A DNA stretch of 43,081 nt from a virus. Taxonomy: Duplodnaviria; Caudoviricetes. The notes under the pieces were generated by a model that saw only the letters and a list, made by a program, of their open reading frames with translations, did no database searches and was not told where the DNA came from. Within the stretch, counting starts at the first letter, position 1. Each line of letters opens with the position of its first letter. The stretch covers positions 1 to 43,081 of the IMG/VR virus record IMGVR_UViG_3300046057_000035; one strand, 5' to 3'. This document shows, piece by piece, positions 21,554 to 40,218 of this stretch. A program made the position numbers and the translations under genes.

Positions 21554-22051
21554 TCAATTTGCAATTCCTCGAATCTGCTTTAATCGAAGCAGCTCCTCCT
21601 GCTCCATCCCAAGCCGCTTGGCAATATCCGGGTCGCTTACACCTTGGTGGGCGAGGCTTTCAACAAGGGCTCCCATGAGCTCCGTCTGGTGCTCTCCTCG
21701 CGCTTGATTGTGGCGGACCGTCGCCGCCTTGCGCTCGGACGTACCCCGGCCGATCGTCGTCACAGGGATCTCGGCAAGCCCGAGTCGCTCTTTCATCACG
21801 AGGTAGCGATGGAAGCCATCGACCACGACATACTGATCTGCCTCCGCGTCGCGGCTCGTGACGACAGGCTGGGTGACTCCGTCCTTTCGAATTGAGCGCT
21901 CCAGAAGGTCGAGCTCGGGGACCGCGACGCGGTTTGGGTTGTAGTCGTTTGCCACCACCCTCGTGGCCAGCACGAGACGTGCGCGAGCGCAGGGAAATGA
22001 TATGGCCTTGTCCGATGAAAAGTCCTCGGGCGTTACAGAATCTCTTTCCAT
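21554..22051 (-). CDS. IbrB-like ParB/Srx domain protein
   Basis: ANDYNPN, SIRKDGVTQPVV, VVDGFHR, TVRHNQARGEH, C-terminal HTH IAKRLGM..EELLRL. Confidence 0.85.
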   Translation of the reverse strand: MERDSVTPEDFSSDKAISFPCARARLVLATRVVANDYNPNRVAVPELDLLERSIRKDGVTQPVVTSRDAEADQYVVVDGFHRYLVMKERLGLAEIPVTTIGRGTSERKAATVRHNQARGEHQTELMGALVESLAHQGVSDPDIAKRLGMEQEELLRLKQIRGIAN

Positions 22052-23646
22052 TTTTCCTTCCAGTCTTGTGAGTCGGAGCGCAATTGCGATTGGACGGGCA
22101 GGTTGTTTTCCCAGTCGTTCAGCAGCAACTGTCGCACCTGCTGCCGGTAGGTGTGCTCATTGTCGTGGTGGTTCTCGAAGCGGCTGAGGAAGCGCTCCTT
22201 CCGCTCGATCGGTGCCGTTTCCAAGAGGTGGTCGCGGTACGCCTTCCACGAGTCGAAGCGCTCTGGAAGCTGACGAGCGTTGTAGACGCTCGGGTCATCG
22301 GCGTAGCGGGCCGCGGCCGTGATGCCCTCCAAGCGTTTGATGAGAGCGTCATAGGTCTCGTGCTCGAACTCTTGCAGCTCGGTGAGAGACGTATACGCCT
22401 TCTCGTGGATCAGATTAGAGACGCGGTACTGCGTGACGTTGTGGCCCTCGTCCTTGGCGTGCATGTAGTCGTAAACCCGGTTGTAGTCCACGTCGTGGTC
22501 GTAGAAGTACTGAAAAATGTCGCTGAACGACCAGTCGTAGAGCGGGTAGAGCTTGAGGACCTCCTCGCCAGCCGTGCTCCAGAGAACGTCGTCAACGCCG
22601 GGGTTTTTGATGACCGCTCGAAGGCGGTTCAGACTCTCCTCCGCCCGCAGGCCCACGAGAAAACACGTGCCCTCGTCCCACTGGCCTTCGAACCAGTCGA
22701 TGAAGGGGTAGAAGCGCTGCGGGTAATCGGCGTCGAGGTTGTGGATTGCAAGCGGGTGCTTGTCTCGCATCCAGTCCTCCCCCGCGCCCCAGGCGTACAG
22801 GAACTCCTGCTCGTAAGAGGTTGCGTTCGTCATGTAAATCGGCACCTGGTACCAGTGGGGGACGACCATGTCTCGACTCATGATGCCGTCGATGACCTCA
22901 ATAGTAGAGGCATACTCTGCCTCCTGGTCGAGAAAGAAGGCATGAACGTCCCGGCCCCGCCGCTCGGCTTCCTCATAGGCGAGCTCGAACATGACCTGCG
23001 AGTCTTTTCCGCCGGAGACTGACATCACGATCGTCTCGAACTCATCGAAAGCGAAGGCGACTCGCTCCCGGGCCGCCTCTAAAACGGTCTTGTTCATATA
23101 CAGCCGGTCGCCTTTCCCACCAACGGGCTCCCCCTCACGGGTACGCCAACGCCACGCCTTGGAGTGGCTGCGGTGAGCATAAAACTCTGCGATCCCTTTT
23201 TCCTGCTGGAGCCGAAGCACTTCTTCGGCTCGCATGCCCAAGTGCTTCGCGATGCGCTCGTTGCTCCAGCCGGCCTCTGCTAGATCGCTGACGAGCTGCT
23301 CCGTGAGGTCGACTTGGTGCTTGCCTCGGGCTCGGTTGTGCCGCACGGTCGACGCCATTCGCTCGTCGAGGGGCTTGTCAAGAACGACCAGCGGGACGTG
23401 CGAGCACCCGAAGCGGTCGCGGAGAATAACGAAGCGGTGAAAGCCGTCGACGACAATGTACTCGCCTGCCGCGTCGTCGTGATAGGCCACGAGGGGCTGG
23501 GTAAAGCCGTCCTTCTCGATGCTTTTTTCGAGAAGGTCCATCTCTTCGCGTGCCACCTCGTTCGGGTTGTACTCGTTGGCGACGACCTTTTCCGTGGGGG
23601 CGAAGGTGACGTCGAGGCACGGCAAGTCAATCGCATTCGCATCCAT
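22033..23646 (-). CDS. Fusion of IbrB-like ParB/Srx domain and IbrA-like PAPS-reductase (PP-loop) domain
   Basis: N-terminal ANEYNPN/VDGFHR/TVRHNRARGKH; C-terminal SVSGGKDS, FLDQEAEY, VGLRAEESLNR, YPLYDW; start at MDANA. Confidence 0.88.
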   Translation of the reverse strand: MDANAIDLPCLDVTFAPTEKVVANEYNPNEVAREEMDLLEKSIEKDGFTQPLVAYHDDAAGEYIVVDGFHRFVILRDRFGCSHVPLVVLDKPLDERMASTVRHNRARGKHQVDLTEQLVSDLAEAGWSNERIAKHLGMRAEEVLRLQQEKGIAEFYAHRSHSKAWRWRTREGEPVGGKGDRLYMNKTVLEAARERVAFAFDEFETIVMSVSGGKDSQVMFELAYEEAERRGRDVHAFFLDQEAEYASTIEVIDGIMSRDMVVPHWYQVPIYMTNATSYEQEFLYAWGAGEDWMRDKHPLAIHNLDADYPQRFYPFIDWFEGQWDEGTCFLVGLRAEESLNRLRAVIKNPGVDDVLWSTAGEEVLKLYPLYDWSFSDIFQYFYDHDVDYNRVYDYMHAKDEGHNVTQYRVSNLIHEKAYTSLTELQEFEHETYDALIKRLEGITAAARYADDPSVYNARQLPERFDSWKAYRDHLLETAPIERKERFLSRFENHHDNEHTYRQQVRQLLLNDWENNLPVQSQLRSDSQDWKEKWKEIL

Positions 23647-24790
23647 AGCATCGGGCTTGCTCGGTGGAAAGGGCACGAGTGAGGGTGTCGATGGCCTGCC
23701 ACTCCGACCACGCCTCGTCGTAGACGAAGCCATCGACGTTCGTGTCGCTGCGAAAATAGTACAGGGTCGCCTCCGGATCAATGCTTCCGATCACGTCGAG
23801 GGCGCCGGTCTGATTTTGGTTGATGGGCGTCTCGAAAAAAATTACTGAGTTGGCCCGAATGGGGCGGTTATCGTGGGTCGTGTACGTGCGATAGTCACAC
23901 CGGACGTCCGCGCCTCGCTTGCGAAGTGCCGACCGAATTTTTCGGTTTTGGCTTTTGAGGTTGGTGAAAAGTACGGGCTCGGCCCCCTTTGCCGCGAGTC
24001 GTCGAAGAAGGTCGGTGAGCGCGTCGTACCGGCTGCCGAGCGCGTTCGAAAAGTCGGCGAGGCGCGTTACAATCTTGCGCGGGCTGTCCCACTCCTCAAA
24101 GAGCTCTTCCTTCCGCTCAGCGTAGGATGCAGCCTCTTGGTCGGACACCTCAGTGTCGACGTGTTCGACAGAAGGGAGGAAGGCGTCGTACGCGATGTGA
24201 CACCAAGGCGCCATTTTCTCAGCTAGGTGCTCGGGATCGTGAGCACGACGCTGGCGGCCTTGATCGTCTTCCTCAAGATAGTCGTGCTCGAACGTATATC
24301 CGTTCGGATAGCCCAGGATGTCACGGGTCAGGTAGGAGAGAGGCAGGTAAAGCTTGCTCACCTCATCGGTGAACGGCACGATGTCGATCCAGTAGCGGTG
24401 CGGCGTCTTTTTCCGGAGTCGGTGCAGGTACCGAAACTTGTCGGAGTCGAGCCGCGAGTAGCGGGCCACATTCTCCATCAAGAGAACTGCGCTCGGGCCC
24501 GCGTAGTCGTGCAGTCGCAAAAACTTGTCTCGCTTTGTGAACTGCTCGATCGGCACCACAAGCATCTCCGGATAGGTCTCTTCGGCGTACTCTTGGATGG
24601 CTTTGGGACAGAGGTAGAGAAACGTCGCCTCGGGATGCTTCTTCTGCAGGAGGCGGATAAAGCCATCCTTCACAGAACGCTGCTTCGCCAGGAGGCCAAA
24701 GACATCCTGCTGCCGAAGGCGCTCTCGGAGGTGAGAAAGCTCCGCCTCAATGCTGTCATCGACGGAAAAGTCAAAGGCGAGCTGCTCCAT
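23627..24790 (-). CDS. Degenerate (probably inactive) SNF2-like protein
   Basis: Segment LLMENVARY...RYWIDIVPF...LYLPLSYLTRDILGYPNGYTFEHDYLE aligns by eye with the neighbouring SNF2, but Walker A, DExx and motif VI are missing. Confidence 0.7.
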   Translation of the reverse strand: MEQLAFDFSVDDSIEAELSHLRERLRQQDVFGLLAKQRSVKDGFIRLLQKKHPEATFLYLCPKAIQEYAEETYPEMLVVPIEQFTKRDKFLRLHDYAGPSAVLLMENVARYSRLDSDKFRYLHRLRKKTPHRYWIDIVPFTDEVSKLYLPLSYLTRDILGYPNGYTFEHDYLEEDDQGRQRRAHDPEHLAEKMAPWCHIAYDAFLPSVEHVDTEVSDQEAASYAERKEELFEEWDSPRKIVTRLADFSNALGSRYDALTDLLRRLAAKGAEPVLFTNLKSQNRKIRSALRKRGADVRCDYRTYTTHDNRPIRANSVIFFETPINQNQTGALDVIGSIDPEATLYYFRSDTNVDGFVYDEAWSEWQAIDTLTRALSTEQARCYGCECD

Positions 24791-32301: not shown

Positions 32302-32514
32302 TTAAAGGCTCTCGCAGGCAATCCCGTCATTGTCCCCGTCTAATCGATGCGGATCACCCGGCTGGTGACGCTCAAAGAACTGCTGGGCTGCCTCGTGAGA
32401 ACTGAAGTCCGAGCAGTTTCTATCAGGCACGCTTTGAGTGGCAGAATTCGAGGAACTCGTGGACACGCAGCCAACGAGCACGAATGCCGATGACAGAATT
32501 AAAAGATGTCGCAT
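32302..32514 (-). CDS. Lipoprotein with Excalibur Ca-binding domain
   Basis: Lipobox LVGC; DRNCSDF...[11 protein letters not shown]. Confidence 0.8.
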
Positions 32515-33199
32515 CTCTTATTTGACTGTCTTGAGAGGTAGTGTTCGACGTACTGCCACCACCCGGCAAACTTTCACACGCTACCCCATCGCCATCCCCG
32601 TCCAGTCCATGGGAATCACCAAGTTGATTTTGGAAGAAGCGCTGAGCTTCCGACTGCGTCGAGAAGTCGCTACAATTCCGGTCCTGGGTTGAGGTCTTCT
32701 TTTGCTCCGACGTTTCGTCCCGCCACTCCCACGGCGACACCGGTACCACTCGGGACCAGAGCCCACGCTCGGCATTCCGCGCCTGTCGCTCAAGGCGAGC
32801 GTATTCAGTGGCATTAGGGGCGTACTGTTCATAATGCCACGCTAAGCCCTCCTCAATCAGCATGGCCCCGAGGTCCCCGCCTCTTACCTCAATCTGGGCC
32901 ACAGCCCGCCCGTAGCGGCCCATCTCCTCCACAGAAACGCGAACGGTAGAGCCTTGGGCGAGCTGGCGCACCCGGTTCGTGGCGTCGTTCCCATACGGCT
33001 GAAGATGTTCAGGCGCGTCGGTGCCCCAGAGGCGAACGGTGAACGTTTGGCCCTTCGAGACGCGAACGTCATAGGTGTCTCCATCCGTGACGGTCTGGAC
33101 GCGTGCCGTATACGTCTGGCCGGGCTGCTGGGCTGAAGCTGGTAGCGTGAGCGCGCAGAGCAGAGCAGTGAAGAGACTAGCACGTAGAAGCTTCACCAT
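32423..33199 (-). CDS. Secreted thermonuclease (SNase-like) with Excalibur domain
   Basis: Signal peptide; [28 protein letters not shown]; DRNCSDF...[11 protein letters not shown]. Confidence 0.9.
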
Positions 33200-33277
33200 C
33201 GGATAATGCACCTCATAGCGGCCATGTAAGCTGTGAGAGTCATACGAGCACGCGCCCTTGAGATAATCCCTGCAGGT

Positions 33278-33862
33278 TTAGATTTCCTCCTGCACTCCTT
33301 CAACAATCACGCGCTCTGCCTCATGCGTTGGCACACATGTGCGAGTCTGCGTTGCCCCAAAGTTGTTGGCCTTGATTTGCTGGGTATCAGAGCCGCCAGT
33401 ATTGAACCTCCACTGAGCCATCTGAACACCGCTTGTCCCAGTGGCCGTGACTACATACCGAACGTTGACCTGTACCTCCGTCTCTTGTTCTCTCACCTCT
33501 TGAACGGTCAGATTCATCCGGCCCTCTAGGTCCAAAGTCGCCCGGCGCTCGTCATACCATCCCACATAGTTCCCCTCATAGGACGGCGGACCATCTGTTG
33601 AAATCTCACCACATTCAATAAAGCGTCCCGGGTCCGAGGAAAATGACAGCGTCATGAGGCCCGACTCTTTTTCGTAGTTATCGATGGCGAAAAAGCGCTG
33701 GGATGTGAAGCTAATCAGTCCCTCCCACACGTCATCATACTCCTGATCGACCGCTACAGAGGTTTGACCAGCAGGCTCTGGGTCTGGTGCCGTATATTCC
33801 GGGGTGGTTACACCACACCCAAGAAAAAACACTGCTATGCCCAAGATTGTGGCGTAGCGCAT
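33278..33862 (-). CDS. Lipoprotein
   Basis: MRYATILGIAVFFLGC lipobox. Confidence 0.75.
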   Translation of the reverse strand: MRYATILGIAVFFLGCGVTTPEYTAPDPEPAGQTSVAVDQEYDDVWEGLISFTSQRFFAIDNYEKESGLMTLSFSSDPGRFIECGEISTDGPPSYEGNYVGWYDERRATLDLEGRMNLTVQEVREQETEVQVNVRYVVTATGTSGVQMAQWRFNTGGSDTQQIKANNFGATQTRTCVPTHEAERVIVEGVQEEI

Positions 33863-34037
33863 AAAGACGATGAGCGTTTGTCAACAGTCAAACCAGCACC
33901 CGCCCGATGATTGCAAAATCTGCACCCTCGTCTATGGCAATTTCAAAATCTTCGTACGCGTTGTTGTCGCTCACGACGCGAATGCGCCCGCCGAGGTGAG
34001 ACTGGAGGCGCTTAGCTGCGAGTGGGAGACCAGAGCT

Positions 34038-34415
34038 CTACGTCAGAATATGCCGCGCAAGAATGCGGCTCACTTTGGTGGGATCTACCTTTAGGCTGAG
34101 TTCCTGGTAGAAGGGCTCACTTCGGCCTTTTATCCAGAGCGTGAGCTCAGCGTCAGCGTCAAACGTGCCTGCGTTCTCCACCTCGAACCGCTCGACGCTG
34201 TCGTAGGGCACCGACTCGTAAGAGACCTTGCTCCCTATCATGCCCTGCTTGTCGACCAAGATCAGTCGTAGGTTTGTGAACACCATCAGATCGCGGTAGA
34301 TCACGAAGGCGGCGCTGATCAACTCTTCCTCTACAAGAATCGGCCCGAGGTCGTCACGAGCCTTTTCAGGCTTGATCTCAGAGACGCGACCTGTGATTGC
34401 ATCAAGAAGACCCAT
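34038..34415 (-). CDS. Bacterial PH domain protein
   Basis: MGLLDAITG...RDLMVFTNLRLILVDKQG..GSKVSYESVPY...FEVENAGTFDADAEL. Confidence 0.85.
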   Translation of the reverse strand: MGLLDAITGRVSEIKPEKARDDLGPILVEEELISAAFVIYRDLMVFTNLRLILVDKQGMIGSKVSYESVPYDSVERFEVENAGTFDADAELTLWIKGRSEPFYQELSLKVDPTKVSRILARHILT

Positions 34416-34521
34416 GGTGGCGCAGGGTTTTACGTGCAAACGTCAGTTCACGGTGGTCAGCTGCCCGTACTCCGCCCAAATCTCCGCGCTGTTTTGCCTG
34501 CAAGACGCACGCCATCGTGCT

Positions 34522-34962
34522 TCAAATGCCACTGAGCACCTGCGTTACGCGCGCGATGCACGTCCACTCCCATTCGTCGCGGTCGCCCTCCAGCTCGATC
34601 GTCGGGTAATCTTCATTGTCAGGGACAAGCCGTACCGTTTGAGCATCGACCCAATGCGCTCGCATGATGATCACGCCGCCGCGGCCGTTTGCCCACATAT
34701 AGACGGCCCCCTGCACAATTTGCCCTCCCTCCTCAATCTCAATCACGACGCGATCCTCGGCGTTAATCGTCCCAGCCATCGAGTCACCAGGCACCCGGGC
34801 AATCGCCTGCTCGCGGCTTTCGTCGACCGTCTTAATGAGCTTGTTGTCGACCGAGATCTGCTCGTCTACGTCTTCGGAGAGCGGCTTGTCGCCCTCCGCG
34901 ACTTTGGTAAGCTCATTTTCATCAAGAAGAGGAAGCTCCTCTGTGGCACTTGTTTCCATCAT
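34522..34962 (-). CDS. Stand-alone S24 peptidase-like domain, no HTH, catalytic Lys replaced
   Basis: VPGDSM retained; IIMR where the upstream paralog has LVKR; PDNEDYP. Confidence 0.75.
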   Translation of the reverse strand: MMETSATEELPLLDENELTKVAEGDKPLSEDVDEQISVDNKLIKTVDESREQAIARVPGDSMAGTINAEDRVVIEIEEGGQIVQGAVYMWANGRGGVIIMRAHWVDAQTVRLVPDNEDYPTIELEGDRDEWEWTCIARVTQVLSGI

Positions 34963-35633
34963 ATTGCTCTCATCACTCTAAATACGCGACCGATGGGTCT
35001 CCAGCTTGGGGCCTCAATGTCGCTTATGTGGATTTCTGGGCACTCGTCGTTGTCTGGCCGAAGAAGCAGGCTCCCATCATCTTGCCAGATCGCCCGCTTC
35101 ACAAGCACCCCGCGCTGGGCGTTTAGCCAGACGTAGACGCTTCCCTGCAGTATGCGATCTCCTTCTTGGTGGCGAACAATGATGATCTGATCTCCTGGAT
35201 TGATGGTGTCCGCCATGCTGTTTCCAGTGACCGTCATGATCGCCATCTGATCTGGATTCCCGCCGGACTGGGACCGTAAGATATCACGGTCTACGCCCAT
35301 GTAGCTCTCCACCTCAATTTTCCACGCCGCACCAGTCTCTGAAGCGTGGGCGTCTGCGTTCAGCAGCGGGAGCGACTGTTGAGCGCTGTCATTTTCCGGC
35401 TCGCTTGCCTCCCCCCTGTTTTGATCGTCAACGCGCTCGGGGAGGTCGTATAGCCCCTCCACCTCTTCTCCATTTCTAACTACCCGCTTCAACCGAGGGG
35501 GGTGCTCATCAGCCAGCTCAGAAAGCAGTGTACCGGCGTAGTTGGCCTTAATCGGTAGTTTCTCGGCTATATCATTTCGCCGGACCGGACCGTCCTCTCG
35601 CACGATCTCTACGATCTGCTCTTTCCTTGCCAT
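34959..35633 (-). CDS. CI/LexA-like repressor (wHTH + S24)
   Basis: N-terminal wHTH (RRNDIAEKL..KANYAGTLLSEL); VTGNSM and VKR catalytic motifs; divergent from a small regulator. Confidence 0.85.
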   Translation of the reverse strand: MARKEQIVEIVREDGPVRRNDIAEKLPIKANYAGTLLSELADEHPPRLKRVVRNGEEVEGLYDLPERVDDQNRGEASEPENDSAQQSLPLLNADAHASETGAAWKIEVESYMGVDRDILRSQSGGNPDQMAIMTVTGNSMADTINPGDQIIIVRHQEGDRILQGSVYVWLNAQRGVLVKRAIWQDDGSLLLRPDNDECPEIHISDIEAPSWRPIGRVFRVMRAI

Positions 35634-35749
35634 GGTACGTATCAGTACGATTCACGTAATCTATACTTTAAGTACTAGGTACGCAGGAACGTACGTACTG
35701 GTATACTGTCTAAGGTACCGCAAACGACGCAAACAGAATAAACACCACG
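35634..35749. promoter_or_regulatory. Divergent immunity/switch region with GTAC-rich operators
   Basis: AT-rich; seven GTAC tetramers in 35635-35718; TATACT at 35662 and 35702. Confidence 0.65.
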
Positions 35750-35923
35750 ATGGGAAACTCCAAGCCAACGCTTGCCACCCGGGTTTCGGAATGGGTATAT
35801 GAGTGGATTGAGACTGAGGCAGAACGCCGCGATCGGAAGAAGGCGTACATCGTGCGCGAGCTGCTAGAGGAGGGTATTGAGCGCCGCGAGCAGGAGCATG
35901 AGGACGATGCCGTCCCCGCGTAG
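35750..35923 (+). CDS. Ribbon-helix-helix regulator in the Cro position, 57 aa
   Basis: Too short for the ORF track; MGNSKPTLATRVSEWVYEWIETEAERRDRKKAYIVRELLEEGI fits the beta-alpha-alpha RHH pattern. Confidence 0.75.
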   Translation: MGNSKPTLATRVSEWVYEWIETEAERRDRKKAYIVRELLEEGIERREQEHEDDAVPA

Positions 35924-36041
35924 CGCGCCCGCGGTAAGATACCGGCAAAGCACTTCCGAACCTCATCCTTCGGATTGTGACACCCGGTAGGAGCAACTCC
36001 AAAGGAGCCATCCTGCACCACCAGCACGCGCCTAACTCGCC

Positions 36042-36353
36042 ATGCAAGATCACTCCGCACAGGACATAGCCACAAAGGACGTTTTTACCGAGGACGGAGC
36101 CGACGTAAAGGCCCGCGTCGAGCGACTTGAGCGGCGCTTAGGTTACGTCGAGGACCGCCTTCAGCAGGAGACCTTGCGCCCGGTCCGCGCCTTGGCGGAG
36201 GAGGACAATCGGTGGCCCAGCAGCTACAGCGGCTTTATCGACCTGATGGAGCGCTCTGGGGTGCCGAAGCGGACGCGCGGTGGAGGACGCAAAGAGGAGG
36301 GGAGCCGCCGGACCACCTACGTGTCAATGTTCGACCTTGAGGAGAAGTGCTGA
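36042..36353 (+). CDS. Hypothetical protein (short coiled coil, possibly DNA-binding)
   Basis: 103-aa ORF in early operon. Confidence 0.65.
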   Translation: MQDHSAQDIATKDVFTEDGADVKARVERLERRLGYVEDRLQQETLRPVRALAEEDNRWPSSYSGFIDLMERSGVPKRTRGGGRKEEGSRRTTYVSMFDLEEKC

Positions 36354-36363
36354 CCAGAGACAA

Positions 36364-36445
36364 GCGGACCTAGCTCAGCGGTAGAGCGCTGCACTGCTTG
36401 TACCCTCCAGTGCAGAGGTGGGCCGTTCGAATCGGCCGGTCCGCA
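36364..36445 (+). ncRNA. tRNA-like RNA with expanded anticodon arm
   Basis: Acceptor GCGGACC/GGTCCGC, D-arm GCTC-AGCGGTA-GAGC, T-arm GGCCG-TTCGAAT-CGGCC all perfect; anticodon arm is 8 bp (CTGCACTG/CAGTGCAG) with 11-nt loop CTTGTACCCTC; no encoded CCA. Confidence 0.85.
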
Positions 36446-36486
36446 CGACACTCATTAGAGCTGATCACCGACCAGCGCCCAGGGGC

Positions 36487-36522
36487 AAAAAAAATGCCCC
36501 CTCCGCTACAGACGGAGGAGGC
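36487..36522 (-). terminator. Minus-strand terminator-like hairpin
   Basis: GCCTCCTCCG...CGGAGGGGGC followed by A and eight Ts on the minus strand. Confidence 0.5.
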
Positions 36523-36547
36523 GCTGTCTCAAAACTTCGATATAGAC

Positions 36548-37030
36548 ATGACTACAATCCACCTGACCGGACAGCGTTCCGGTGCCACCATCGACGATAA
36601 GCCCATGGACCCACCGCTGCCCACCGGCGGGGGCCGCGTGATCGTTTGGATCGGAAAGCGCCCCGCCGTCGTCGTGCGCCACGACCAGCGGGGTACGGCC
36701 CTGTACAACGTCCACGACCCCGAGGGCTGCCGGATCTACACGCGGGCCCGAATTCGCCGCTGGTGGCCTGCCGCCCAGGCGTTTGACGCCCCTGATAGCG
36801 TCGGGGAGATGGTGGCCCGCGCTGTCGACGGGGCGTACGACGAAGAGGCGTCGGCTGCAGGCTACGACAGCCCTCTCAGCTACGTGATGGGCCTCGTCGC
36901 CGCGATCGGGACCGCCTCGTTCGAGGAGCTGGACGCCGCACGGAAGACCTCGCTTGAGAAAACCTCGCTTGAGAAAACCTCGCTTGAGAAGGCCTCTCGG
37001 CAACCGCCTGAGGAGGTGATGAGCCGATGA
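36548..37030 (+). CDS. Hypothetical protein with C-terminal KTSLE repeats
   Basis: Start at MTTIHL; 15-bp tandem repeats near the end. Confidence 0.65.
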   Translation: MTTIHLTGQRSGATIDDKPMDPPLPTGGGRVIVWIGKRPAVVVRHDQRGTALYNVHDPEGCRIYTRARIRRWWPAAQAFDAPDSVGEMVARAVDGAYDEEASAAGYDSPLSYVMGLVAAIGTASFEELDAARKTSLEKTSLEKTSLEKASRQPPEEVMSR

Positions 37031-37332
37031 CCACCCCGCCCGCCGAAAGGAGTTCTTGTAGGACCTTCTCTAGCCGACAAGTGGAAGATGTTTGGATTGT
37101 CCATTCGAGCCTCACGACACGACTGGACACCGAGATCGCCGCCTGCGCCTACGACGCGTTCAGCAAGTGGGCCGCCCGGCGCGGACTGGCCGGCCGCGTT
37201 TTGGCTGGACAGCGTATTGACGAGCCGGTCCGGCACCTCGACTTAGCGGTCGAGACTGAAGCGGGGCTCGCAGGCGCCGGCTCAGAACTGCACCGAGTGC
37301 ACATTGTCCGCGAACGGCTTCTTGAGAGCTGA
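37027..37332 (+). CDS. Hypothetical protein
   Basis: ATGA-coupled to upstream gene. Confidence 0.55.
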   Translation: MTTPPAERSSCRTFSSRQVEDVWIVHSSLTTRLDTEIAACAYDAFSKWAARRGLAGRVLAGQRIDEPVRHLDLAVETEAGLAGAGSELHRVHIVRERLLES

Positions 37333-37571
37333 TGAGCGTCCTAAAAGTGCTGACCGGCCTCGCCTTCGGAATCGCCGGCGCCGTGTGTTCGATCACGGCT
37401 TACCGGCGCCATCGGCGCATCCAGCGCGCCTGGGAGCGCTGCCGTGGAACGCGCCCAAACACCCAGGAGGAGGCCGAAGCGCTTGCGCGACAGACCGACA
37501 TTACATTCGACTACGACCGCCGCACGTGCGCCTTTGAGGGCCACGCGCGCTCGATTGCCTACACCAACTGA
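37332..37571 (+). CDS. Small protein with N-terminal TM segment
   Basis: VLTGLAFGIAGAVCSITAY followed by RRHRR; TGATG coupling. Confidence 0.6.
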   Translation: MSVLKVLTGLAFGIAGAVCSITAYRRHRRIQRAWERCRGTRPNTQEEAEALARQTDITFDYDRRTCAFEGHARSIAYTN

Positions 37572-37599
37572 CAGCACGCACCGCACTCGGAAACATGAA

Positions 37600-37719
37600 G
37601 TGAGCCCTGATTGAGTGAGCCCTGACGAGCGGCGAGAGAGACCGCGAAACGCCTGCGAGAGGACCGCCAGGTCCACCCAACCATGGGTGCAGGCGTCGGC
37701 TGTTTTCGACTACGCTCAC
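37600..37719 (+). ncRNA. Type I hammerhead ribozyme
   Basis: CTGACGA (37622-28), stem II GCGG/CCGC, GAAAC (37646-50), stem III GCCTGC/GCAGGC, GTC triplet (37695-97), stem I AGCC/GGCT plus distal GTGAGC/GCTCAC. Confidence 0.88.
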
Positions 37720-37736
37720 AGACACTACCGAACGCC

Positions 37737-38774
37737 ATGAGTGATCCAACACAGAGTGATTTAACACAAGAAACGAACGCGCTGCTTCGCCGCCTCGTGT
37801 CGGCGGTGGAGCGGAAGGAGCTCGGCCTCACGGCCGGTCCGCCCGGCAGCGTCACGCTCTACGCCAACCGCGTGAAGGCGCCGGACGGCGGGGTGTGGTA
37901 CCGGTGGGACCGGCAGGCCGAAGAGCCGATCGCCGTGACCGACCGGTACGTCCGGGGGCGCCTGACCGACGTCGTCTGCTACGAGAAGTCCTCCGAGCAG
38001 GGCACCACGACGAAGGTGCGCGCGGCGCTCTCTGCGGGCCGCACGCGGTACGAGATCGAGACGACGCTCACCGCGACCAGTGGCCGGGGGCTGGTCGCTG
38101 GGCTTCTTGAGGCGGCCGAGAGCGCTTTAGCGAACGCGCCAAAGCGCCCCATCACGATCGGCGCCGAGCCGGCCGACAAAGATCAGGTCCTCTTCATGAA
38201 CGTCTTTACCGACGAGGGCGGGAAGCAATATCCCGACTCGATGCCGAAGGGCGAGGAGGCGCTCGTGAGCGGCTTGGAGACGGTCCGCTCTTGGATGGGA
38301 CTAAAGCCAAACCCGTGGACCGATCGCTTCCAGAGCACAGCTTCGCATAAGAGCACAGCTTCTTCGAGTGGCGACTCGCCTCGCTCGACCCGCCAGAATA
38401 GCTCGACCCGCCAGAATGGCCAAAGCCGCGAGCCCCGCGAGTCGGAGGAAATATACGACCAGTCCAAAAAAAGGGGACCGAGCCCCGAAGAGGCGGCGCG
38501 CAAGCTTGTCCAGAAGGCGCGGGAGCACGACGCGGGGCAGCTCGCTGGGGAGGTGACCGTCAGCGGCGCGCCGCTGAGCCAGAAGCTGCGCGGGCTCGCC
38601 GAGTACGCCGGCCGGGACAAGGGCTACGTCGCTCGCGTCTGCGACGCGCTCTCCATCGGGGGCTTCGACGAGGTGGCCGTGGGGCAGGCCCAGGACGTCG
38701 CGCAGATGCTTCTCGACGAGGACATGCTGCGGGAAAACAAGAGCTTTGAGCCGGATGGCGAGATGCCGTTTTAG
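37737..38774 (+). CDS. Putative ssDNA-binding/recombination protein
   Basis: Beta-rich N-terminal domain, disordered linker, SSB-like acidic tail EPDGEMPF; start at MSDPTQ. Confidence 0.5.
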   Translation: MSDPTQSDLTQETNALLRRLVSAVERKELGLTAGPPGSVTLYANRVKAPDGGVWYRWDRQAEEPIAVTDRYVRGRLTDVVCYEKSSEQGTTTKVRAALSAGRTRYEIETTLTATSGRGLVAGLLEAAESALANAPKRPITIGAEPADKDQVLFMNVFTDEGGKQYPDSMPKGEEALVSGLETVRSWMGLKPNPWTDRFQSTASHKSTASSSGDSPRSTRQNSSTRQNGQSREPRESEEIYDQSKKRGPSPEEAARKLVQKAREHDAGQLAGEVTVSGAPLSQKLRGLAEYAGRDKGYVARVCDALSIGGFDEVAVGQAQDVAQMLLDEDMLRENKSFEPDGEMPF

Positions 38775-38840
38775 GTGCCGTCGTTTAGCGGGTCGCCCGT
38801 TGTTTCAAGTTCATGAGATTGTATTCCACGGAGAGTCAAG

Positions 38841-39809
38841 ATGAGCATTTTTGCGGACGAGACCCTCACTCAAGGCGAGCGACTCGTATGGTTTGCCATT
38901 CGTGAGTTGGCCACTGGGGGGCTGTGTCGCGTCGGCGCATCCGAGGTTGCCGATCACATGGGAAGCGCTCGCGCGCATGTAAGCCGCTCTATTCGGTCAC
39001 TTGCCGATCAGGGGTGGATAGAACGCACTGAGAGCGGCGCGCTAGTGCCAGTGGACGACCCAGGCGCTTCCAGCAAAGAATCCCAGCGTGACTCTGAGTC
39101 ACGAAATCGTGACTCTCAGTCACGTGACTCTCAGTCACGCAAGGGTTTCCCCGCTCCTCCCTTCGTTTCCCCCCAAGAAAGTACACTCAACCCCCCTTTG
39201 CCTTCCCACCTCACCCCTTCCCAAAAAGTGGTGGTCGGCTCCGCTGACGCGGACCGACCGCCCTGGTTGCAGCGGCTTTTGGATGAAATCTCATGGCAGG
39301 CCGAGCCCCTCCCGGACGGTCACCCCGCTTGCTGGGAATACCACCCCGGCGAGTGGCAGTGGGAAGCGGCGATTTACCTGCTGCGAGGGCTTCAGGAGCA
39401 CCAAGTTCTGCACAGCGGGATCGACGACAGCAAGCCTGAAGGGCAGATTGCCTCGGAATGGGCCGATGCCTTTCGGCTCCTTCACGAGGAGGATGGATAC
39501 GGACTGCCAGCCATCCGAGGGACGCTTTGGTGGCTGATAAACACCGAAAATTGGTGGATTCAGAACGTCATCCAGAGCGGCAGCAATTACGCCCTGCGGA
39601 GCCGCGACGGCGACGGAGCCCACAAATTCGACAAACTCGTTCAGCGAGCCCGACGCTACTATGAGCAGAGGCAGAAGCAGCGTGCCGACCCAGACACAAT
39701 CCGCGAAGGATTCGCCCCCGAAAGCGAACAGGAGCCTGAGCCTGCCGGGTCTTCCGGAGACGCCATCCCTCACGAGCGAGGAGTGGAAGTCTCCGGTTTC
39801 CAGTGGTGA
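38841..39809 (+). CDS. Replication initiator (N-terminal wHTH)
   Basis: LTQGERLVW...SEVADHMGSARAHVSRSIRSLADQGWIER; internal repeats; C-terminal WWIQNVIQS..LR..KFDKL. Confidence 0.75.
   Translation: MSIFADETLTQGERLVWFAIRELATGGLCRVGASEVADHMGSARAHVSRSIRSLADQGWIERTESGALVPVDDPGASSKESQRDSESRNRDSQSRDSQSRKGFPAPPFVSPQESTLNPPLPSHLTPSQKVVVGSADADRPPWLQRLLDEISWQAEPLPDGHPACWEYHPGEWQWEAAIYLLRGLQEHQVLHSGIDDSKPEGQIASEWADAFRLLHEEDGYGLPAIRGTLWWLINTENWWIQNVIQSGSNYALRSRDGDGAHKFDKLVQRARRYYEQRQKQRADPDTIREGFAPESEQEPEPAGSSGDAIPHERGVEVSGFQW
39087..39139. repeat. Three palindromic iteron-like repeats CGTGACT-N3-AGTCACG (candidate origin)
   Basis: Copies 39087-39103, 39108-39124, 39123-39139 inside the initiator linker. 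Confidence 0.7.
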
Positions 39810-40218
39810 ACTGACGGATGCCCTGACGCGCCTGGCACTGGAAGTGCAGCCTGACATTCGCGATCAGCCGCTCAGGCAAAAAGCGCTACGCAGGCGACTG
39901 GAGCAGCGAGGCTACACGAAGGGCGAGATCCTTTACGCCGTCGATGAGCTCGCCGACGAACCCGAATTGGATGACAAACTGCGGTACGGGGGCGACCTGT
40001 CGGCGGCAGACTTTCGGCGCGTAATCGAACCGATTCGAAAAACTCGCAGCCGTCTGCGGCAGGGAAAGGTGCTTACGGAAGAGGAGGTCTGGTGTGCGGT
40101 CGACGCTGTACCTCAGCTAGAGCGAGGAGACTTCGGAGCTTGCCGATCGGAGGAGAGCGATCGGCGGTTTATTCTCAAGAAACAGGCCCGCCAGCGCTTG
40201 GAGGCCACGCATGCCTGA
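39661..40218 (+). CDS. Putative helicase-loader-like replication protein
   Basis: Helical ORF overlapping the initiator 3' end; positional call, start uncertain. Confidence 0.45.
   Translation: MSRGRSSVPTQTQSAKDSPPKANRSLSLPGLPETPSLTSEEWKSPVSSGELTDALTRLALEVQPDIRDQPLRQKALRRRLEQRGYTKGEILYAVDELADEPELDDKLRYGGDLSAADFRRVIEPIRKTRSRLRQGKVLTEEEVWCAVDAVPQLERGDFGACRSEESDRRFILKKQARQRLEATHA

What the first reader, a model, noticed from the sequence alone, without database searches (positions are those of the whole stretch)
36364..36445. tRNA-shaped RNA with a rebuilt anticodon arm and a possible antisense target in the cro-like mRNA
Seen: acceptor, D and T arms are perfectly paired, so this is not a decayed pseudo-tRNA, but the anticodon arm has 8 bp and an 11-nt loop (CTTGTACCCTC; CTTGTA resembles a Thr-UGU loop). 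The segment GCUUGUACCCUCC can pair with GGAGGGUAUUGAGC at 35869-35882 in the upstream RHH gene (13 pairs including two G-U, one bulge), and CCUCC is also anti-SD-like. Established: P1 C4 and P4 CI immunity RNAs are RNase P-processed from early transcripts and act on sites in the same transcript. Inference: a tRNA scaffold repurposed as an immunity/antisense RNA, a decoy for anticodon nucleases, or an RNase P/Z processing signal.
Basis: partly seen in the sequence, partly recalled or inferred. Interest (0 to 1): 0.8.

Follow-up and report, generated by a model that had tools for sequence, protein, structure and literature searches.

The report
Swappable anticodon-less phage tRNA scaffold
A salt-crust phage carries, just after its cro-type switch gene, a tRNA-shaped gene with no normal anticodon loop, and related phages keep the top half of the tRNA shape at this spot while swapping the rest, so it is likely a host-enzyme cutting signal and RNA carrier rather than an antisense RNA against cro.

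Summary
The tRNA-shaped element at 36364-36445 is real (Rfam tRNA 55.1 bits). All arms pair fully; the anticodon arm has 8 bp and an 11-nt loop; there is no CCA and no Ala G3·U70. It is not a lesion. Sister contigs keep the body but carry at least three other loops. Cultured Salinibacter phages fill the same post-cro slot with a 128-nt allele (35 of 186 records) or a 70-nt allele (151 of 186), exchanged exactly at the RNA ends inside a 99.5%-identical block. Six modules in five genomes share the acceptor stem, T arm and G1-C72, the RNase P substrate; the anticodon part is free or absent. The proposed antisense target can pair (-19.8 kcal/mol) but is marginal (9 of 150 loop shuffles do as well) and does not co-vary with the loop. 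Best reading, inferred: an RNase P processing site that punctuates the early transcript and releases a stable non-decoding RNA with an exchangeable insert. Expression was not tested. Closest known: T5 RNA1, T4 rnaC, P1 C4. This scan has noted anticodon-less phage tRNA scaffolds before on other DNA; the precise allele swap in culturable phages is what this case adds.

The parts
36364..36445 (+). tRNA-shaped RNA gene without a canonical anticodon loop (acceptor 7 bp, D arm 4 bp, anticodon arm 8 bp + 11-nt loop, 5-nt variable region, T arm 5 bp, discriminator A, no CCA)
36397..36407 (+). Variable insert in place of the anticodon loop; other and longer in sister phages
   Evidence: tables 3, 4, 7; table 7
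35750..35923 (+). 57-aa cro-position gene, ribbon-helix-helix type
   Evidence: no Pfam or PHROG hit; atlas feature score 0.92 to a cluster with 54% RHH_1; the syntenic gene of phage 13_1 is RHH_1 by Pfam
35869..35882 (+).
36042..36353 (+). 103-aa ORF, possibly an excisionase/AlpA-like HTH protein (weak); optional between RHH and the RNA
   Evidence: 12 homologues; atlas structure rows TM up to 0.55, under the naming bar; skipped in one X4 contig and one X3 contig (table 5)
34959..35633 (-). CI-type repressor with S24 peptidase domain, divergent from the RHH gene
   Evidence: Pfam PF00717 E 2e-12; phrog_4; best GenBank hits are 186 Salinibacter phage records at about 32% identity
35634..35749 (.). 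Repressor/cro intergenic region with repeated GTAC-centred boxes (likely operators and promoters)
   Evidence: read from the sequence; no sigma-70 consensus found; role inferred
36487..36522 (-). A-run plus 11-bp GC-rich hairpin: terminator-like on the minus strand, and leader hairpin of the next early gene; similar hairpins precede the next gene in the relatives, also where no tRNA module is adjacent
36548..37030 (+). First early gene downstream of the RNA (160 aa, no family)

Best explanation
The element is a tRNA-derived cassette in the phage's post-cro early operon that keeps the acceptor stem and T arm, has lost its anticodon loop, and likely serves as a cutting site for the host's tRNA-maturation enzymes, which would split the early transcript and release a stable, non-decoding small RNA carrying an exchangeable insert. 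Shown: the anatomy; the fixed slot; conservation of the 7+5-bp top half, G1-C72 and a T-loop across six modules with different stem sequences; freedom of the D and anticodon arms; exact exchange of the whole RNA between two close cultured phages. Inferred: co-transcription from the cro-side promoter; RNase P cleavage 5' of G36364; 3' trimming and possible CCA addition; that the selected job is the cut itself, separating the cro/RHH message from the downstream early genes, with the insert as a secondary, freely evolving passenger.
For: Six modules in five genomes (window, 13_1, 4_13, G001 twice, G002), all sense-strand between the cro-type gene and the next early genes. Acceptor 7 of 7 pairs in four, 6 of 7 and 5 of 7 in two; T stem 5 of 5 in all six; G1-C72 in all six; five different T stems and acceptor 5' strands that all differ. 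The part between acceptor and T arm is 50, 96, 38, 35, 10 and 12 nt long, so two modules have no insert at all. Acceptor + T stem + T loop is a sufficient RNase P substrate, measured as 12 bp, and RNase P cuts C4 RNA and mRNAs (PMC11143913, passages). 13_1 and 4_13 are 99.5% identical over 10.56 kb upstream and 95% downstream, with the break at the RNA ends; 35 + 151 of 186 records hold one or the other allele. Sister contigs keep the body and change loop and flanks. An engineered tRNA with its anticodon stem-loop turned into an insertion site is processed and protected in E. coli (PMC3753655, passages).
Against: No expression or cleavage data. The stem differences could partly reflect capture of different host tRNA genes rather than step-wise covariation; the host tRNA set could not be reached. 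In 150-nt context the acceptor helix has equilibrium probability 0.01-0.03 in three of six modules under global folding; under local folding it is 0.61-1.0 in four but 0.15 and 0.02 in two. G003, a close relative by repressor (61% identity), and M8CC-19 (first 50 of 53.8 kb) have no module, so it is dispensable. A bare cutting signal does not explain why some inserts are large and folded (57 nt in 13_1). Among 139 ORFs near other enlarged-arm tRNA bodies in IMG/VR, contexts are mixed: repressor at 4 loci, anti-repressor or Rha at 2, also terminases and lytic tRNA clusters.
Confidence: 0.45

Rival explanations
1. The released RNA acts in trans on host proteins: a decoy or inhibitor of a defence or tRNA-sensing factor, with the insert under diversifying selection and the tRNA top half only a chassis for processing and stability.
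For: Precise whole-RNA exchange between two phages of one host; at least three other loops among sister contigs of one study; folded inserts; place among early genes.
Against: Two of six modules have no insert and one has a 3-bp stub. No 7-nt anticodon loop is kept, so it is a poor mimic for anticodon nucleases (inference). Inserts share no run longer than 5 nt. No partner is known.
Confidence: 0.25
2. A C4/CI-type antisense RNA: the processed RNA pairs through its loop with the RHH mRNA or, through C-rich tracts, with G-rich sites of host or rival-phage mRNAs.
For: The 13-nt duplex is third best in the genome and lies in the same operon; p about 0.06-0.07 in two controls. C-rich tracts occur in the window, in X2 and X3 loops and in allele B. 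C4 is an RNase P product.
Against: Target unchanged at 35871-35882 in the linked X4 contig whose loop differs (the contig ends before the 3' part of that loop). Alleles A and B share one RHH gene but no guide sequence. No Rfam C4 or IsrK hit. Target predicted paired in naked mRNA. SD motifs at 5 of 40 starts. Host mRNAs were not tested.
Confidence: 0.15
3. A neutral or DNA-level relic: a captured host tRNA gene or attachment site that drifts.
For: Absent from G003; degenerate in G002; no integrase among the window proteins scanned, so an att role cannot be checked locally.
Against: Both acceptor strands are kept and paired; the body is conserved where flanks break. In 13_1 and 4_13 a separate T-arm-only half tRNA sits right after the integrase, which is the likely attP. 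The slot is filled in all 186 records.
Confidence: 0.1
4. An intron-containing tRNA that is spliced to a decoding tRNA.
For: 10 extra nt in the anticodon loop is intron-sized; 33 of 120 enlarged-arm hits in IMG/VR look like intron tRNAs.
Against: Removing 10 nt at 37/38 would leave GCU followed by U37 on a short-arm body (read from sequence; purine 37 rule recalled). No bulge-helix-bulge seen. Allele A lacks U33; other modules lack the arm. The host is likely bacterial.
Confidence: 0.03

Closest known systems
Phage T5 RNA1 (NC_005859 30501-30644) and T4 rnaC/rnaD (species 1 and 2 RNA)
   Same: Phage RNAs annotated as tRNA-like or stable RNAs of unknown function (PMC9697503 passage). T5 RNA1 and T4 rnaC have a T arm near the 3' end and folded inserts in place of the anticodon arm.
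   Different: They lie in tRNA clusters of lytic phages and T4's are late RNAs. This one is a lone module behind the cro-type gene of a repressor-bearing phage, on a short-arm Val/Ala/Thr-like body, and is exchanged as a unit. No sequence homology was shown.
P1/P7 C4 antisense RNA (Rfam RF01695) and P4 CI RNA
   Same: Small structured RNA inside an early operon; C4 is cut out by RNase P (PMC11143913).
   Different: No Rfam match; true tRNA D/T arms here; no paired upstream and downstream targets and no loop/target covariation. C4/CI target layout is recalled, not read.
Engineered tRNA scaffold for recombinant RNA (PMC3753655)
   Same: Acceptor, D and T arms kept; anticodon stem-loop used as an insertion site; processed and protected by the host.
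   Different: Artificial. Here natural, without encoded CCA, and the insert's job is unknown.
Ordinary tRNA-Ala/Val/Thr genes
   Same: D arm, anticodon stem CTGCA-CT and variable region match ordinary Val, Ala and Thr tRNAs.
   Different: No 7-nt loop, no G3·U70. The GenBank label 'tRNA-Ala' on allele A and ARAGORN's call here are positional artefacts.

Membership tests
Decoding tRNA (Ala/Thr/Val) | Cloverleaf with paired acceptor, D and T arms | tested here: met
Decoding tRNA (Ala/Thr/Val) | 5-bp anticodon stem with 7-nt loop, conserved among homologues | tested here: not met
   8 bp + 11 nt; loop differs in sisters
tRNA-Ala | G3·U70 pair (identity rule recalled) | tested here: not met
   G3-C70
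C4/CI antisense RNA | Match to Rfam C4-type models | tested here: not met
   no hit at E<=5 in window 33000-40000 or at E<=1 in 5 related loci
C4/CI antisense RNA | Loop-complementary targets in the same transcript that co-vary with the loops | tested here: not met
C4/CI antisense RNA | Processed by RNase P from an early transcript | not testable with these tools
   substrate shape present; no RNA data
T5 RNA1 / T4 rnaC-type tRNA-like stable RNAs | tRNA top half with the anticodon arm replaced by an insert | tested here: met
T5 RNA1 / T4 rnaC-type tRNA-like stable RNAs | Accumulates as a stable RNA | not testable with these tools
   no RNA run listed
T5 RNA1 / T4 rnaC-type tRNA-like stable RNAs | Sequence homology and place in a tRNA cluster | tested here: not met
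   blastn of 35600-36700 finds no phage record; only tRNA-like gene in the window
Intron-containing tRNA | Splice motif and a valid conserved anticodon after removal | tested here: not met
   read from sequences
tRNA-derived attP | 3' half of a tRNA gene next to an integrase | tested here: not met
   both halves present; in 13_1 and 4_13 a separate half tRNA follows the integrase

The most novel reading that the evidence does not exclude
Temperate phages use tRNA top halves as natural expression scaffolds: a fixed early-operon slot from which host RNase P releases interchangeable payload RNAs that act against host defence or rival phages, an RNA counterpart of variable anti-defence gene slots.
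Probability: 0.25. Interest if true: 0.8.

Novelty: new variant of a known kind. Interest (0 to 1): 0.5.

Why it matters
The job of tRNA-like stable phage RNAs such as T4 rnaC and T5 RNA1 is still listed as unknown. Here two cultured phages of Salinibacter ruber M8, nearly identical around the slot, carry two unrelated alleles, so expression, cleavage and allele effects can be tested directly. Such genes are also mislabelled as tRNA-Ala or missed altogether, which distorts counts of phage tRNAs.

Tried and rejected
No close DNA relative of the element in GenBank phages, plasmids or IMG/VR by exact 25-nt pattern. The one metagenome scan returned 7 ordinary tRNAs. A T-arm pattern in IMG/VR gave 23 unrelated hits. 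The 103-aa protein and the repressor found no locus in GTDB genomes, so the host genome, its tRNA set and host mRNA targets stay untested. No RNA holder listed. Pairing of the loop with the downstream hairpin: predicted probability 0. A 12-nt perfect complement of the allele-B insert in a late gene is about what a GC-rich 46-kb genome gives by chance (my rough estimate, 0.4 expected). Pairing of inserts with the upstream leader hairpin and likeness of loops to operator boxes were seen by eye, are inconsistent across modules, and were dropped. sRNA-17 (PMC7719688, passages) has no mention of tRNA; AcrIIIA1 (PMC11662646, passages) binds host tRNA fragments and is not a precedent. No covariance model was built: six modules with unalignable middles were too few.

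Full report
Setting. The window is a whole 43,081-base virus record held in halite metagenomes (6 runs, 3 studies; X1 is probably the source). It encodes a terminase, major head protein, helicase and a CI-type repressor. The repressor's GenBank hits are 186 Salinibacter ruber M8 phage records and 2 Rhizobium records, at about 32% identity for the best. A Salinibacter-like host is therefore inferred, not shown. No integrase was found among the window proteins I scanned (not every ORF), and the contig has no terminal repeat. The element lies on the plus strand after the divergent repressor/RHH switch and a 103-aa ORF. The scan found no plus-strand terminator between the RHH gene and the element.

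Observation. Rfam tRNA scores 55.1 bits. ARAGORN says Ala(TGC), but pair 3-70 is G-C and CCA is not encoded. The D arm and anticodon stem resemble ordinary Val, Ala and Thr tRNAs found by the pattern scans. Nearest-neighbour folding does not single out the cloverleaf: -40.3 against -40.5 kcal/mol for another fold.

Sister phages. Contigs of three other samples of the same study keep the body and change the loop. X2 record 13 spans 36360-36734 with 4 substitutions (two in the loop, one at 36494, one not listed) and 19 inserted bases, all in the loop, forming an inner hairpin. X4 record 23 starts its loop the same way. X2 record 12 and X3 record 21 have two further loops. These are single contigs of depth 2.8-5.8. 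Upstream flanks break at the first base of the element in X1, X2 and X4, and in two contigs of X5, a separate study, which hold the 5' half with 0 and 1 differences. The 103-aa gene is skipped in one X4 and one X3 contig. The 11-nt loop is thus one short allele of a variable insert, not a lesion of a 7-nt loop.

Cultured relatives. Phage 13_1 has the same gene order and a 128-nt 'tRNA-Ala' in the slot: a tRNA body (43.2 bits) with a 57-nt folded loop. 35 of 186 records hold it. 151 hold, at 99% or more, a 70-nt unannotated RNA with an acceptor stem, a D-like hairpin, a C-rich linker and a T arm. I did not list the two sets, but the counts sum to 186. These records are close isolates from one experiment, so they count as two alleles, not 186 events. 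The allele-B fold alone is no more stable than shuffles (z -0.98). 13_1 and 4_13 align at 99.47% over 10,560 bases upstream and 95.2% over 867 downstream; the gap is 35974-36103 in 13_1, the annotated RNA being 35975-36102. The paper on these phages says only that tRNA genes were found in one species (PMC11631230, main-text passages and one supplement passage). Three IMG/VR relatives were found through the repressor. G001 has two modules and G002 one degenerate module behind the cro-type gene; G003 has none, nor has M8CC-19 in its first 50 kb (the strict descriptor missed G002 and gave one opposite-strand hit in G003; Markov controls gave 0-3 hits per genome).

What is kept. Across the six modules the T stem is fully paired, G1-C72 is constant, the acceptor has 7, 7, 7, 7, 6 and 5 pairs, and CCA is never encoded. 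Two modules swap T-loop positions 54 and 58 together (A54/U58). The middle is 10 to 96 nt. Acceptor sequences and discriminator bases differ, so no synthetase identity is kept. The conserved part is the acceptor + T stem + T loop unit that RNase P cleaves and measures as 12 bp (PMC11143913, passages). Against this, the acceptor helix competes with other folds in context: 0.01-0.03 in three modules under global folding, 0.15 and 0.02 in two under local folding.

Antisense test. Testing all 13-mers of the arm against 35700-36360, 9 of 150 loop shuffles and 9 of 121 other stretches did as well. That is marginal before allowing for the choice of region. In X4's linked contig no change is listed at 35871-35882 while the loop begins differently; the first two target bases are too near the piece's end to be listed, and the contig stops before the loop's 3' part. 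X2's RHH contig also lists no change there, but it is not linked to a loop and is 97% identical over that part of the gene, so this says little. By eye, the X2 and X3 loops could pair with the same site only through several G-U pairs and a mismatch; I did not compute this. Alleles A and B sit behind the same RHH gene and share at most 5 nt. No flank test on the window, 13_1, 4_13 or G001 beat shuffled inserts (0 of 8). SD-like motifs precede 5 of 40 starts that I picked from the ORF list.

Mechanism. Most likely (0.45) the module is a host RNase P site in the early transcript. The cut would separate the RHH and 103-aa message from the downstream early genes, whose leader carries its own hairpin, and would release a stable non-decoding RNA whose anticodon position tolerates any insert. 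Every step after the anatomy is inferred. Rivals: a trans-acting payload against host proteins (0.25), antisense action (0.15, of which the RHH site about a third), a relic or att site (0.10), an intron tRNA (0.03). In 13_1 and 4_13 a T-arm-only half tRNA follows the integrase, so the module is not their attachment site.

Breadth. One D-arm/T-arm pattern with a long gap matches about 710 IMG/VR stretches (estimate). Of 120 returned, my rough classifier put 40 as enlarged anticodon arm, 35 other, 33 intron-like and 12 canonical with a long variable arm. Neighbouring genes were mixed (139 of 188 ORFs scanned). tRNA bodies without an anticodon are therefore common in phages and not tied to one context.

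Known and new. T5 RNA1 is annotated 'tRNA-like stable RNA with unknown functions' and T4 rnaC/rnaD as small stable RNAs; a 2022 paper still calls the T4 RNAs of unknown function (PMC9697503, passage). C4 is an RNase P substrate and an Rfam family (PMC2864571, table passage); no C4-type model matches here. The engineered tRNA scaffold uses the same design (PMC3753655, passages). Searches listed no paper on anticodon-less tRNA cassettes in early operons; I saw listings and abstract starts only, except for the papers named, and most subscription journals are not held. PMC5776456 (passages) describes only ordinary tRNAs in other Salinibacter phages. Earlier notes of this scan report the same class on other DNA; they gave me the T5 RNA1 lead, which I checked.

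Verdict. Real, conserved in shape, not a decoding tRNA, and probably not an antisense RNA to the cro-type gene. It is a new variant of the phage tRNA-like RNAs of unknown function. Interest 0.5: the class is not unique, but the exact allele swap in culturable phages makes its function testable.

Noticed in passing
window 35840-35873 and 36441-36480 (run X6): Two contigs match the RHH gene for 32 nt only, and one runs on into a palindromic repeat that looks like a type I-E CRISPR repeat (type recalled): likely host spacers. Two more 35-nt pieces match just behind the element.
   Followed up: partly
window 34522-34962 (-): A second, stand-alone S24 peptidase-domain gene lies directly behind the repressor.
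   Followed up: no
window 21554-23781 (-): ParB-like and PAPS-reductase/DUF3440 genes in tandem, possibly a DNA-modification module.
   Followed up: no
window 36943-36996: Three copies of a 15-nt unit inside the gene downstream of the element, coding KTSLE repeats.
   Followed up: no
L188 3330-3960 and L187 3730-4450 (-): Long non-coding early leaders with repeated hairpin modules and recurring CTCACAGAC and AGGAGCC motifs around the tRNA-like modules; AGGAGCC also occurs in the window near 36005 and upstream of the 13_1 and 4_13 RNAs.
   Followed up: no
L181 7405-7440: T-arm-only half tRNA right after the integrase of phage 13_1, the likely attP; not annotated in the record.
   Followed up: partly
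L009, L014, L027, L044, L048, L049, L053, L074, L086, L088, L096, L107: A recurring phage family of tRNA bodies with a long inner hairpin in the anticodon arm, next to a CI-like repressor in L009, L014 and L044.
   Followed up: partly
window 32302-33211 (-): Secreted-looking staphylococcal-nuclease plus Excalibur domain gene, followed by a short ORF with a similar C-terminal motif.
   Followed up: no
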